NCBI RefSeq assembly: GCF_013167455.1
Contig: NZ_CP038328.1
Source: Escherichia coli O157:H7
Lineage (GTDB): Bacteria > Pseudomonadota > Gammaproteobacteria > Enterobacterales > Enterobacteriaceae
Length of the DNA stretch: 64,000 bases
Direction: 5' to 3' (one strand)
Every line of letters begins with the position of its first letter. The stretch's first letter is position 1. Position numbers: made by a program. Below are positions 12,001-15,000 of the stretch, in pieces.

Positions 12001-15000
12001 AGAACGTAAGGCGAAGATTAAAGCCGATGCCGAAGAAGCAGCGCGTAAGATTGGCGGTAACGCTGACTTAAGCGAAAGCCTGCTGGAAGAAGTGGCTTCG
12101 CTGGTGGAGTGGCCGGTCGTTCTAACCGCGAAATTTGAAGAGAAATTCCTCGCGGTGCCGTCTGAAGCACTGGTTTACACCATGAAAGGTGACCAGAAGT
12201 ACTTCCCGGTGTATGCGAACGACGGCAAACTGCTGCCGAACTTTATCTTCGTTGCCAACATCGAATCGAAAGATCCGCAGCAAATTATCTCTGGTAACGA
12301 GAAAGTCGTTCGTCCACGTCTGGCTGATGCCGAGTTCTTCTTCAACACCGACCGTAAAAAACGTCTGGAAGATAACCTGCCGCGCCTGCAAACCGTGCTG
12401 TTCCAGCAACAGCTGGGTACGCTGCGTGACAAGACTGACCGCATCCAGGCGCTGGCTGGCTGGATCGCCGAACAGATTGGCGCTGACGTTAACCACGCAA
12501 CCCGTGCGGGCCTGCTGTCTAAGTGTGACCTGATGACCAACATGGTCTTCGAGTTCACCGACACCCAAGGCGTTATGGGGATGCACTACGCGCGTCACGA
12601 TGGCGAAGCGGAAGACGTAGCCGTCGCGCTGAATGAGCAGTATCAGCCGCGCTTTGCCGGTGATGACCTGCCGTCCAACCCGGTAGCTTGTGCGCTGGCG
12701 ATTGCTGATAAGATGGATACTCTGGCGGGTATCTTCGGTATCGGTCAGCATCCGAAAGGCGACAAAGACCCGTTTGCGCTGCGTCGTGCCGCACTTGGCG
12801 TGCTGCGAATTATCGTTGAGAAGAACCTCAACCTTGATCTGCAAACGCTGACCGAAGAAGCGGTGCGTCTGTATGGCGATAAGCTGACTAATGCCAACGT
12901 AGTTGATGATGTTATCGACTTTATGCTCGGTCGCTTCCGCGCCTGGTATCAGGACGAAGGTTATACCGTTGACACCATCCAGGCGGTACTGGCGCGTCGT
13001 CCGACTCGTCCGGCTGATTTCGATGCCCGCATGAAAGCGGTATCGCACTTCCGTACCCTGGAAGCAGCTGCAGCACTGGCGGCGGCGAACAAACGTGTAT
13101 CTAACATCCTGGCGAAATCTGACGAAGTGCTGAGCGATCGCGTGAATGCCTCTACTCTGAAAGAGCCGGAAGAAATTAAACTGGCGATGCAGGTTGTGGT
13201 GCTACGTGACAAGCTGGAGCCGTACTTTGCGGAAGGTCGTTACCAGGATGCGCTGGTCGAACTGGCAGAGCTGCGTGAACCAGTCGATGCCTTCTTCGAT
13301 AAAGTGATGGTCATGGTTGATGACAAAGAATTGCGTATCAACCGTCTGACCATGCTGGAGAAACTGCGCGAACTGTTCCTGCGCGTTGCGGATATTTCGC
13401 TGTTGCAGTAATAACGCCGTTATTAAAAAGCCTGCCATCTGGCAGGCTTTTTTTATCGCTAAATAATACAGCAACCTTTAATAATCTTCTGCTGAATAAA
13501 GATTATCTCATATATTAATTTTATGAGATTTTTTTAGGATTATATCAAGGAGAAGAAACAAACTTATTAAGCTAGAATAGCCACGGGTGCTTGAGACTGT
13601 TTGTCTCAGGTATTCACCGAAAGGCAGACAGAGAAAAGCCCCACCTGACTATAAATCAAAGTGAGGCCCCTCTATGTATAGACACCATAAGGTTAGCCTC
13701 TTACTCGTTGGAAATCAACACAGGGGGCTGGGAATGCCGCAGAAATATAGATTGCTTTCTTTAATAGTGATTTGTTTCACGCTTTTATTTTTCACCTGGA
13801 TGATAAGAGATTCACTGTGTGAATTGCATATTAAACAGGGGAGTTATGAGCTGGCGGCATTTTTAGCCTGCAATTTGAAAGAGTAAGAGTCTTCGGCGGA
13901 AAGTTATTCCCGCCTTTCTTACGGCGTTGCGCATTCTCATTGCACCCAAATTTATTTTTCACAAAAATAATACTAGATTTTATTACGCGATCGATTATTT
14001 ATTTCCTGAAAAACAAATAAAAAAATCCCCGCCAAATGGCAGGGATCTTAGATTCTGTGCTTTTAAGCAGAGATTACAGGCTGGTTACGTTGCCAGCTGC
14101 CGGGCCTTTAGCGCCGCTTTCGATGGTGAAGGACACTTTCTGACCTTCGTCCAGAGATTTGTAACCATCGTTCTGGATAGCAGAGAAGTGTACGAACACG
14201 TCTTTAGAGCCATCGTCAGGAGTGATGAAGCCGAAGCCTTTGTCAGCGTTGAACCATTTTACGATACCAGTCATTTTACCGGACATAGTGTATTACCTTT
14301 AATAATTAAGTGTGCCTTTCGGCGATATGGCGTGCTTTACAGATTTTGAAGCGTTAAAGGAATGTGCACTACGAGGGGTATCAACGATAACTCTTGAAGG
14401 GACTTGCCTTACTACACTGCTTTAATGGTCTGTACGTCAAACCGTTGATGTGCATTAAGCCACGCATTGGCGGGTGATGCAACAATTATTTTTCATATTT
14501 ATGATTAATCGGTTGGAAAACGGTCCTGTCATCAGGACCGTAAACAGCAATAAAGTGGATAAAAGTCTATTCCATCAACTGCTTACTTAATGCCGGGTTG
14601 GCTTGAATCAAACGCATCAATTTTAGTTCGGCACTTGAAGGCTTCACGCGTCTGGATTCCCATTCCTTTACCATGGCGACTGATACGCCCAAAACCCGGG
14701 CGAAATCATCGATTTTTAATCCTGTCCCTTTTCGTAACTGCTCAATTTCGGTACAGGACGTTGTTCTGTGCGTCAGGGTAATTTTCTGCGTTTCATCTTT
14801 AAAAACAATCTGTTCCAGGCTGCTCAACAGCTCATGCATTGGATCTTTATATTCCATTGAAAACTCCTCAAATCACACTGCGGGATCGTGAATTGCATCG
14901 AAGCTCATTAAGAATAGTCGGGAAAAGCAGACACAGCGGGGTGAAGTCAGGGCATGCTCTGGCTATGATTCGATTCAGCCAGTCATTTAGCGTGACTTAT

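What the first reader, a model, noticed from the sequence alone, without database searches (positions are those of the whole stretch)
13412..14073. Uninterrupted hokA/mokA toxin locus with no IS element between glyS and cspA
The hok-family toxin ORF (50 aa) and its overlapping mok frame lie in a 660-bp glyS-cspA intergenic region with no transposase ORF. I recall that K-12 carries an IS150 copy (insJ/insK) at this locus, so this strain may retain a potentially functional chromosomal hok/sok module.
Basis: partly seen in the sequence, partly recalled or inferred. Interest (0 to 1): 0.35.

Follow-up and report, generated by a model that had tools for sequence, protein, structure and literature searches.

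The report
Intact hokA/sokA toxin-antitoxin locus, O157:H7
This is the ordinary, already annotated, IS-free copy of the chromosomal hokA/mokA/sokA toxin-antitoxin locus as found in E. coli O157:H7 and about half of all sequenced E. coli; K-12 carries an IS150-disrupted version.

Summary
Window 13412-14073 is the 662-bp glyS-cspA spacer. It holds a 50-aa Hok-family ORF (13734-13886) and a 70-aa mok ORF (13674-13886), and no transposase. One detail needs correcting: mok is in the same frame as hok, as in K-12 mokC/hokC.

The stretch is 100% identical to E. coli O157:H7 chromosomes, where hokA is already annotated. K-12 does carry IS150 here. It also lacks 39 bp (13663-13701) holding the mok start, its Shine-Dalgarno sequence, the sok -10 box and the SokA 5' end. 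The MG1655 record already lists mokA and sokA as pseudogenes.

Every recognisable hok/sok element is present in the window:
- the Rfam hok-leader/sok match;
- tac/fbi 5'-3' pairing;
- the ucb/SDmok to tac/ucb switch and the nascent 5' hairpin;
- an SDmok/dcb stem that can form locally, though it is not in the whole-molecule optimum;
- a sequestered hok start;
- a Sok-like antisense gene with an R1-type promoter.

About 52% of 5,426 complete E. coli genomes have the spacer uninterrupted. IS-free hokA loci were described in 1999 (E. coli C). That allele reportedly showed no post-segregational killing. Activity here is therefore plausible but unproven. Verdict: real, correctly read, already known, low interest.

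The parts
13573..13578 (+). Putative hokA promoter -10 box TAGAAT. No good -35 box, so probably a weak promoter.
   Evidence: Aligns with TATGAT upstream of the R1-type hok mRNA start and lies 6 nt before the Rfam model start at 13585. The consensus promoter scan did not call it. Position inferred, not shown.
13585..13950 (+). Predicted full-length hokA mRNA. The 5' end is taken from the Rfam model start; the 3' end is inferred to lie just past fbi.
   Evidence: Rfam RF01794 covers 13585-13736 at 119.6 bits (gathering score 59), E=3e-28. The fold of 13585-13952 gives -130.9 kcal/mol, z=-6.75 against shuffles. The real 3' end is not determined.
13585..13596 (+). tac (translational activator) element at the 5' end: GGGUGCUUGAGA
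   Evidence: Pairs with fbi in the full-length fold and with ucb in 3'-shortened folds. Pairs with 13603-13615 as a 13-bp hairpin in the nascent 41 nt.
13636..13644 (+). ucb (anti-SD box of mok): AAGCCCCAC
   Evidence: Pairs with SDmok (13661-13667) in the full-length fold and with tac (13585-13592) in truncated folds.
13659..13661 (.). AAG: the IS150 target, duplicated on both sides of the element in other E. coli strains. Unoccupied in this window.
   Evidence: L003 and L011 carry IS150 here in opposite orientations, each with an AAG duplication.
13663..13701 (.). The 39 bp that K-12 lacks next to its IS150: SDmok, the mok ATG, the SokA 5' part, the sok -10 box and dcb. All are present here.
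   Evidence: BLAST of the window against K-12 and inspection of the junction sequences.
13663..13667 (+). Shine-Dalgarno sequence of mokA (GAGGC), 6 nt before ATG 13674
   Evidence: Read from the sequence. Pairing partners come from the folds.
13674..13886 (+). mokA ORF (70 aa), in frame with hokA and sharing its stop codon
   Evidence: The arrangement matches K-12 mokC/hokC.
13628..13683 (-). Predicted SokA antisense RNA (about 56 nt): a 5' single-stranded tail, then a long hairpin, then a U-rich end
   Evidence: Fold -24.4 kcal/mol, z=-5.43. The 3' part coincides with the 35-nt sokA pseudogene remnant annotated in MG1655, which maps to window 13662-13628. The 5' end is inferred from the promoter position.
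13690..13718 (-). Putative sokA promoter: -35 TTGATT (13718-13713), 17-nt spacer, -10 TAACCT (13695-13690)
   Evidence: Same place, spacing and flanking block (GTAAGAGGC) as TTGCGC-17-TATCCT in the R1-type locus L004. Below the threshold of the consensus scan. Inferred.
13696..13700 (+). dcb (GCCUC), which can pair with SDmok in the open form
   Evidence: The local fold of 13585-13720 forms GAGGC:GCCUC together with tac/ucb. Enforcing it in the whole truncated RNA costs 4.7 kcal/mol over the optimum.
13723..13727 (+). Shine-Dalgarno sequence of hokA: GGGGG here, GGAGG in K-12
   Evidence: It is sequestered, together with the hokA AUG, in a predicted 16-bp helix 13725-13740:13854-13869.
13734..13886 (+). 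hokA toxin ORF, 50 aa
   Evidence: Pfam PF01848 at E=9e-24. Annotated as HokA WP_001135738.1 in O157:H7. Differs from K-12 HokA at E36G and K47N; the three Cys residues are kept.
13895..13914 (+). 3' stem-loop GGCGG..CCGCC, followed by UUUCUU. Likely the stop point and protector of 3' trimming.
   Evidence: Aligns with the R1-type GGCGGGC..GCCCGCC hairpin. O157 alone has A13900 where the seven other alleles have G, which removes one G-C pair. The role is inferred.
13935..13947 (+). fbi (fold-back inhibitory) element: UCUCAUUGCACCC
   Evidence: Pairs with tac in 6+5 bp in the minimum-energy and centroid folds.
13863..13934 (-). 23-aa ORF antisense to the hokA 3' end (ysaE in K-12; 'hypothetical protein' in O157 records)
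   Evidence: Annotations. No Pfam match. It is a neighbour and is not shown to be part of the module.

Best explanation
The interval is the ancestral, IS-free allele of the chromosomal hokA-mokA-sokA type I toxin-antitoxin locus, exactly as in published E. coli O157:H7 genomes. I infer that it works by the plasmid R1 hok/sok scheme, as follows. A weak promoter makes a stable hokA mRNA of about 365 nt. Its 5' end (tac) pairs with its 3' end (fbi). In that closed form the mok Shine-Dalgarno sequence is held by ucb, and the hokA Shine-Dalgarno sequence and AUG are buried in a long helix. Slow 3' trimming removes fbi. tac then pairs with ucb, which frees the mok ribosome site and the Sok target. 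The short, unstable antisense SokA RNA binds there and the duplex is destroyed; without SokA, mok is translated and HokA is made. HokA is a 50-aa inner-membrane peptide that depolarises the cell. Shown here: the identity of the locus, the absence of any IS, the presence and position of every sequence element, and the predicted structures. Inferred: transcription, processing, SokA control and toxicity of this allele. In K-12 and roughly half of E. coli, IS150 has split the locus between ucb and SDmok, within the sokA terminator stem, which disables both the toxin mRNA and the antitoxin.
For: The window is 100% identical to O157:H7 chromosomes that annotate hokA here. The toxin ORF matches Pfam HOK_GEF at E=9e-24. 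The Rfam hok-leader/sok model scores 119.6 bits against a gathering score of 59. The full-length fold pairs 13585-13596 with 13935-13947 and ucb with SDmok, z=-6.75. Truncated folds switch to tac/ucb, and the nascent RNA forms the 5' hairpin. The SDmok/dcb stem forms only in the local fold of 13585-13720. SokA folds into a tail plus hairpin, z=-5.43. The putative sok promoter matches the R1-type one in position and 17-nt spacing. K-12 has IS150 plus a 39-bp loss, with mokA and sokA annotated as pseudogenes. The R1 mechanism is as summarised in PMC9841398. HokA peptide was toxic when overexpressed (bioRxiv 10.1101/2025.08.07.668861). Most substitutions among eight alleles at predicted paired positions keep pairing through G-U, A-U or G-C exchanges, for example 13725/13869, 13859/13735 and 13677/13931.
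Against: There are no expression data for this allele. The consensus promoter scan called neither the hokA nor the sokA promoter, so both are weak or misplaced. The mRNA 3' end and its terminator are not identified. The SDmok/dcb stem is not in the predicted optimum of the whole truncated RNA; enforcing it costs 4.7 kcal/mol. An IS-free hokA locus from E. coli C reportedly gave no post-segregational killing and no rifampicin activation. The locus is dispensable, since about 48% of complete genomes have it disrupted. The alleles are too similar to show compensatory double changes.
Confidence: 0.9

Rival explanations
1. The locus is intact in sequence but is a functionally inert relic. It may make RNAs, yet the toxin is never released in amounts that matter, so the absence of IS150 has no phenotypic consequence.
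For: [quoted passage not shown] Half of E. coli have lost the locus to IS150. Some IS-free alleles carry likely damaging point mutations (NR341: -10 A-to-G, loss of A13733, a G-to-A change in fbi). The hokA promoter has a poor -35 box. O157 has GGGGG rather than GGAGG as the hokA Shine-Dalgarno sequence and a weakened 3' stem.
Against: All regulatory elements are retained in this allele. HokA keeps its three Cys residues and carries the same Gly as R1 Hok at position 36. HokA peptide was toxic on overexpression. Repeated independent IS150 hits on one site could reflect selection against an active toxin. A chromosomal copy of R1 hok under its own promoter is lethal without Sok (PMC9841398), so chromosomal copy number is not limiting in principle.
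Confidence: 0.4
2. The IS-free state in this strain is secondary: an ancestor carried IS150 and lost it by precise excision, rather than never having had it.
For: None directly. IS150-bearing alleles are common.
Against: The site shows a single AAG with no scar. IS-free alleles occur on several distinct haplotypes: O157, O145:H28, ATCC 25922, S1-CAM-04-C, JNE120442 and NR341. The IS150 copies carry target duplications typical of fresh insertions. The K-12 type cannot revert because 39 bp are gone.
Confidence: 0.03
3. The hok-like ORF is a chance ORF in a spacer and there is no toxin-antitoxin module.
For: Short ORFs are common. Forty ORFs of 20 aa or more overlap 12500-15000.
Against: Pfam E=9e-24, Rfam E=3e-28, conservation in 5,425 of 5,426 genomes, and curated hokA annotation.
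Confidence: 0.01

Closest known systems
E. coli K-12 hokA/mokA/sokA locus (b4455, b4647, b4614) with IS150 (insJ/insK)
   Same: It occupies the same chromosomal position between glyS and cspA. The flanks are 97-98% identical, and HokA is 96% identical (48 of 50 residues).
   Different: K-12 has a 1443-bp IS150 between window 13662 and 13702. It lacks 13663-13701 (SDmok, the mok ATG, the SokA 5' end, the sok -10 box and dcb), so mokA and sokA are pseudogenes. The window has none of this. Small differences remain: HokA E36G and K47N, and the hokA Shine-Dalgarno sequence GGGGG against GGAGG.
IS-free hokA/sokA of E. coli C (Pedersen & Gerdes 1999, Mol Microbiol 32:1090; known here only through citing papers)
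   Same: It is an uninterrupted hokA locus with a cis-encoded SokA and a target of about 52 nt (PMC3562002; bioRxiv 10.1101/2025.08.07.668861). My predicted SokA of about 56 nt is of similar length.
   Different: I could not obtain the E. coli C sequence, so the number of differences from the O157 allele is unknown. ATCC 8739, which I tried as a stand-in, is not IS-free.
hok/sok (parB) of plasmid R1
   Same: The element order is the same: promoter, tac, ucb, SDmok, mok, the antisense sok gene with its promoter in or next to dcb, a sequestered hok start, a 3' hairpin and fbi. The Pfam and Rfam families are the same, and predicted folds of this locus reproduce the closed-to-open switch described for R1 (PMC9841398).
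   Different: The toxin is only 36% identical. mok is in frame with hok here, whereas the two frames are offset in the R1-type locus. The 3' UTR is about 46 nt shorter in the alignment, and no separate terminator hairpin follows fbi. The locus is chromosomal, and plasmid-stabilising killing has not been reported for hokA.

Membership tests
[quoted passage not shown] | Small hydrophobic Hok/Gef toxin ORF (about 50 aa) matching PF01848, with the conserved Cys residues | tested here: met
   PF01848 at 83.2 bits (cut-off 22), E=9e-24. C14, C29 and C46 are present, and C14, C29 and the 'SLCE' motif are invariant in the alignment with R1 Hok.
[quoted passage not shown] | mok reading frame starting upstream of hok, overlapping it, with its own Shine-Dalgarno sequence | tested here: met
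   ATG 13674 is preceded by GAGGC at 13663-13667. The 70-aa ORF ends at the hokA stop codon. It is in frame with hok, as in K-12 mokC/hokC.
[quoted passage not shown] | hok mRNA leader with the family's conserved sequence and secondary structure | tested here: met
   Rfam RF01794 matches 13585-13736 over the full model (1-157) at 119.6 bits against a gathering score of 59.
[quoted passage not shown] | Long-range tac/fbi pairing of the mRNA 5' and 3' ends | tested here: met
   GGGUGC.UGAGA (13585-13596) pairs with UCUCA..GCACCC (13935-13947) in the minimum-energy and centroid folds, z=-6.75. This is prediction only, and the real 3' end is unknown.
[quoted passage not shown] | Conformational switch: ucb/SDmok in the full-length RNA; tac/ucb and SDmok/dcb after 3' trimming; a metastable 5' hairpin in the nascent RNA | tested here: met
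   ucb/SDmok appears in the full-length fold. tac/ucb appears in folds ending at 13928 or 13932. SDmok/dcb appears in the local fold, but enforcing it in the whole truncated RNA costs 4.7 kcal/mol. A 13-bp nascent hairpin forms at 13585-13615. All of this is in silico.
[quoted passage not shown] | Cis-encoded antisense Sok RNA gene overlapping the mok translation start, with its own promoter and a terminator hairpin | tested here: met
   TTGATT-17-TAACCT on the minus strand is collinear with the R1-type TTGCGC-17-TATCCT. The predicted RNA has a tail plus hairpin, z=-5.43. It overlaps the sokA remnant annotated in MG1655. Transcription was not tested.
[quoted passage not shown] | Stable toxin mRNA with an unstable antitoxin RNA; RNase III cleavage of the duplex; killing when Sok decays | not testable with these tools
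   This needs northern blots, a rifampicin chase and genetics. For the E. coli C hokA allele, citing literature reports no killing.
IS150 (IS3 family) insertion at hokA, as in K-12 | A 1443-bp element with TGTACTG...CAGTACA ends and insJ/insK between glyS and hokA | tested here: not met
   No such sequence lies in window 13412-14073, and the spacer is 662 bp against 2066 bp in K-12. This is the point of the finding.

The most novel reading that the evidence does not exclude
The AAG at 13659-13661, inside the sokA terminator stem, is a specific hot spot for IS150. It has been hit independently in both orientations, and a third event 2 nt away gave the K-12 state. The high frequency of disrupted alleles (about 48% of complete genomes) would then reflect selection against an intact hokA/sokA module that is active and costly. 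In that case IS-free alleles such as this O157:H7 one would be live toxin-antitoxin systems with a real role, for example in phage exclusion or persistence.
Probability: 0.2. Interest if true: 0.35.

Novelty: already known. Interest (0 to 1): 0.1.

Why it matters
It matters little beyond correct annotation. The result confirms that K-12 is the derived state at this locus. It also shows that O157:H7, like roughly half of sequenced E. coli, keeps a structurally complete hokA/sokA module. That makes O157:H7 or another IS-free strain the right background for asking whether chromosomal hok/sok loci do anything, a question still open since the negative tests of 1999. The recurrent IS150 insertions at one trinucleotide are a modest side observation for people who study IS target choice or the cost of type I toxins.

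Tried and rejected
- Pedersen & Gerdes 1999 (PMID 10361310) is not in the held library. Its content is taken from citing papers only.
- I tried E. coli ATCC 8739 as a stand-in for 'E. coli C', to compare with the experimentally tested IS-free allele. It is not IS-free: it carries a different IS3-family element plus an IS150 end remnant. No comparison with the tested allele was possible.
- The consensus promoter and terminator scan found only one unrelated promoter-like site (13439-13467) and the cspA terminator, no more than in shuffles. My hokA and sokA promoter assignments therefore rest on collinearity with the R1-type locus, not on that scan.
- The sub-threshold Rfam hits at 13355-13534 (STnc370, Phe/Trp leaders, istR and others) all sit on the glyS terminator hairpin. 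I dismissed them as terminator look-alikes.
- Junction counts do not add up exactly. 2830 + 1644 + 1133 exceeds 5425. The likely cause is that the two IS150 inverted repeats cross-align at 80-90% identity when there is no offset. The counts are therefore given as approximate.
- Covariation support from eight E. coli alleles is weak. There are only single-sided, wobble-compatible changes and no double compensatory changes. I ran no further search on a locus that is already annotated.
- Literature searches for hokA or sokA expression data in O157:H7 found nothing specific. A search for a described IS150 hot spot at this site was not followed beyond the title list.
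Full report
**What is in the sequence.** glyS (689 aa) ends at 13411 on the + strand. cspA (70 aa, [20 protein letters not shown]...) occupies 14074-14286 on the - strand, so 13412-14073 is exactly the 662-bp spacer between them. The cspA side is confirmed by a full-length match to the Rfam cspA thermoregulator (498 bits).

Inside the spacer is a 50-aa ORF at 13734-13886 that matches Pfam HOK_GEF (PF01848) at E=9e-24. A 70-aa ORF starts at ATG 13674 and ends at the same stop codon. Among the ORFs of 20 aa or more lying wholly inside the spacer, the longest is this 70-aa frame, and none resembles a transposase. A 140-aa frame at 13927-14349 runs out of the spacer antisense to cspA.

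One detail of the finding needs correcting. The mok frame is not a different overlapping frame. The two ATGs are 60 nt apart, so mokA is an N-terminally extended HokA. That is normal for chromosomal hok loci: in MG1655, mokC (16751-16960) and hokC (16751-16903) share a stop codon and a frame.

**Where it comes from and how common it is.** The spacer is 100.0% identical to E. coli O157:H7 chromosomes, as are the 962 bp spanning it. RefSeq annotates hokA there (WP_001135738.1), together with a 23-aa hypothetical ORF on the other strand.

Of 5,426 complete E. coli genomes, 5,425 have a match, and 2,830 (52%) have the spacer in one piece. IS-free hokA has been described for E. coli C (PMC3562002; bioRxiv 10.1101/2025.08.07.668861) and noted for the AIEC strain NRG857c (PMC7232551). 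The state is therefore neither rare nor new.

**The K-12 comparison.** In MG1655, IS150 (insJ/insK, 1443 bp, ends TGTACTG...CAGTACA) lies between glyS and hokA. The reference record already lists mokA and sokA as pseudogenes on either side of it.

At base level, the K-12 left flank runs to window 13662 and the right flank starts at 13702. There is no 3-bp target duplication, and window 13663-13701 is missing. Those 39 bp hold the mok Shine-Dalgarno sequence, the mok ATG, the 5' part of SokA, the sok -10 box and dcb. K-12 has therefore lost more than continuity, and the window has all of it.

**Regulatory anatomy of the window's allele.** The Rfam model RF01794 is named 'sok', but on the + strand it describes the hok mRNA leader from +1 to the hok AUG. 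It matches 13585-13736 over its full length at 119.6 bits (gathering score 59).

The closed form is predicted as follows.
- Folding 13585-13952 gives -130.9 kcal/mol, z=-6.75 against shuffles.
- The 5' end GGGUGC.UGAGA (13585-13596, tac) pairs with UCUCA..GCACCC (13935-13947, fbi).
- The mok Shine-Dalgarno region (13661-13667) is held by 13638-13644 (ucb).
- The hokA Shine-Dalgarno sequence and AUG (13725-13740) are buried in a 16-bp helix with 13854-13869.

The open form follows removal of the 3' end.
- In folds ending at 13928 or 13932, tac re-pairs with ucb (13585-13592 with 13636-13642).
- In the local fold of 13585-13720, SDmok (GAGGC, 13663-13667) also pairs with GCCUC (13696-13700, dcb). 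Enforcing this stem in the whole truncated RNA costs 4.7 kcal/mol over the predicted optimum.
- The first 41 nt alone form a 13-bp hairpin (-20 kcal/mol), which corresponds to the metastable structure of nascent hok mRNAs.

This is the closed-to-open switch described for R1 hok (PMC9841398).

On the minus strand, TTGATT (13718-13713), a 17-nt spacer and TAACCT (13695-13690) are collinear with TTGCGC-17-TATCCT of an R1-type plasmid locus. The two share the spacer block GTAAGAGGC. An RNA starting near 13683 and ending near 13628 has a single-stranded 5' tail and a long hairpin followed by U's (-24.4 kcal/mol, z=-5.43). Its 3' 35 nt coincide with the sokA remnant annotated in MG1655.

A -10-like TAGAAT (13573-13578) precedes the mRNA start and aligns with TATGAT of the plasmid locus. 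There is no good -35 box, and the generic promoter scan called neither promoter. Both assignments are therefore inferences from homology.

**Does this allele carry damaging mutations?** I aligned it with five other IS-free alleles and with two IS150-bearing alleles from which the IS had been removed. I then mapped all differences onto the predicted structure. Nothing in the O157 allele breaks an element.

Its own peculiarities are these:
- T13677, where the six other alleles that retain this position have C (K-12 lacks it). This is mok codon 2 and lies in the SokA tail; the antisense stays complementary by construction.
- GGGGG instead of GGAGG as the hokA Shine-Dalgarno sequence. This is shared with several alleles and is still purine-rich.
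- A13900, where all others have G. This removes one G-C pair of the 3' stem-loop.
- HokA E36G and K47N relative to K-12.

Gly36 is also the residue of R1 Hok at that position, and C14, C29 and C46 are kept. By contrast, the IS-free NR341 haplotype looks decayed. It has TAGAAT changed to TGGAAT, loss of A13733 (which also puts mok out of frame with hok), G13942A in fbi and G13856C in the helix that sequesters the hokA start. 'Uninterrupted' therefore does not always mean intact, but in this window it does.

Most substitutions at predicted paired positions are wobble-compatible. There are no double compensatory changes, so the allele set adds little independent support for the structure.

**How it most likely works, and how sure that is.** The identity of the locus is secure. 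The mechanism is inferred from the R1 paradigm:
1. A stable, closed hokA mRNA is made.
2. Slow 3' trimming opens it.
3. SokA binds the mok initiation region and the duplex is cleaved.
4. If SokA is lacking, mok is translated and HokA is made, which depolarises the inner membrane.

HokA peptide was toxic on overexpression. Against an active role, the IS-free hokA locus of E. coli C reportedly did not mediate post-segregational killing and was not activated by rifampicin. In addition, about half of E. coli do without the locus. I rate 'structurally complete hokA/sokA module' at about 0.9. Whether it is physiologically active or an inert relic is close to even.

**Side observations on IS150.** The disrupted alleles are not all of one kind.
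- In strain 2013C-4974 (L003), IS150 sits after 13661 with an AAG duplication (13659-13661), with the transposase on the hokA strand.
- In FXCREC016 (L011), IS150 sits at the same AAG with the same duplication but in the opposite orientation, and on a different hokA haplotype.
- K-12 is a third state: 2 nt to the right, without a duplication, and with the 39-bp loss.
- ATCC 8739 has the K-12 junctions. Most of IS150 is replaced by a different IS3-family element of about 1.2 kb, leaving a 41-nt IS150 end.

Junction searches give roughly 1,650 genomes with IS150 in the K-12 orientation and up to 1,133 in the other orientation. The sum slightly exceeds the total, probably because the two inverted repeats cross-align.

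The AAG lies in the 5' arm of the SokA terminator stem and just upstream of SDmok. Every insertion there therefore cuts the toxin ORF off from its promoter and leader, and also splits the antitoxin gene. Repeated hits on one trinucleotide suggest a target hot spot, selection, or both. I did not test this further.

**Verdict.** The finding is real and correctly interpreted, but it describes a locus that is annotated in public O157:H7 genomes. Its IS-free form has been in the literature since 1999. Novelty: already known. Interest: low.

Noticed in passing
window 13659-13661; L003 2056-3502; L011 498-1940: IS150 is inserted at exactly the same AAG, with a 3-bp duplication, in opposite orientations in two E. 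coli strains that carry different hokA haplotypes. K-12 has a third, nearby insertion. This looks like an IS150 hot spot inside the sokA terminator stem.
   Followed up: partly
L010 22765-23981 (E. coli ATCC 8739): A different IS3-family element of about 1.2 kb (ends TGGACTGACCCC...GGGGTCAGTCCA) sits at the K-12 left junction. It is followed by a 41-nt remnant of the IS150 end and then the K-12 right junction. How this arose is unexplained.
   Followed up: partly
window 13574, 13733, 13856, 13942 (alleles L009 NR341 and L011 FXCREC016): The IS-free NR341 allele appears to be decaying by point mutation: -10 TAGAAT changed to TGGAAT, loss of A13733 (which shifts mok out of frame with hok), a broken pair in the helix that sequesters the hokA start, and a G-to-A change in fbi. 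The loss of A13733 was also seen in FXCREC016; the other three positions were not checked in that strain.
   Followed up: partly
window 13667-13681: A hypervariable patch covers the mok start and the SokA 5' tail, with two haplotypes: GGCCCCTCTATG(T/C)ATAGACACC and GGCTACCCTATGCCTGAACACC. O145:H28 also has a 4-nt insertion and a G-to-T change at about 13664-13666. This could tune Sok/target specificity between hok paralogues.
   Followed up: no
window 13900: O157 alone among eight alleles has A instead of G here, which removes one G-C pair from the 3' stem-loop GGCGG(G)...CCCGCC. That stem-loop probably sets the 3' end of the processed mRNA.
   Followed up: no
window 13863-13934 (-): A 23-aa ORF lies antisense to the hokA 3' end. 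It is annotated as ysaE in K-12 and as a hypothetical protein in O157 records. It has no Pfam match, and its relation to the hokA 3' UTR is unknown.
   Followed up: partly
window 14074-14286 (-): Many RefSeq (PGAP) records name this gene 'cspE', although by position, by the MG1655 annotation (b3556) and by the Rfam cspA thermoregulator match it is cspA.
   Followed up: yes
window 13429-13452: The glyS terminator hairpin (GCCTGCCATCTGGCAGGC flanked by A and T runs, so possibly bidirectional) attracts several sub-threshold Rfam hits (STnc370, leader peptides, istR). These are terminator look-alikes.
   Followed up: yes
window 39562-39627 (-); 31394-31467 (+); 31564-31645 (-): Other Rfam matches above the gathering score in the window: the rdlD antitoxin RNA (a second type I toxin-antitoxin locus, ldrD/rdlD), a tRNA, and naRNA4.
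   Followed up: no
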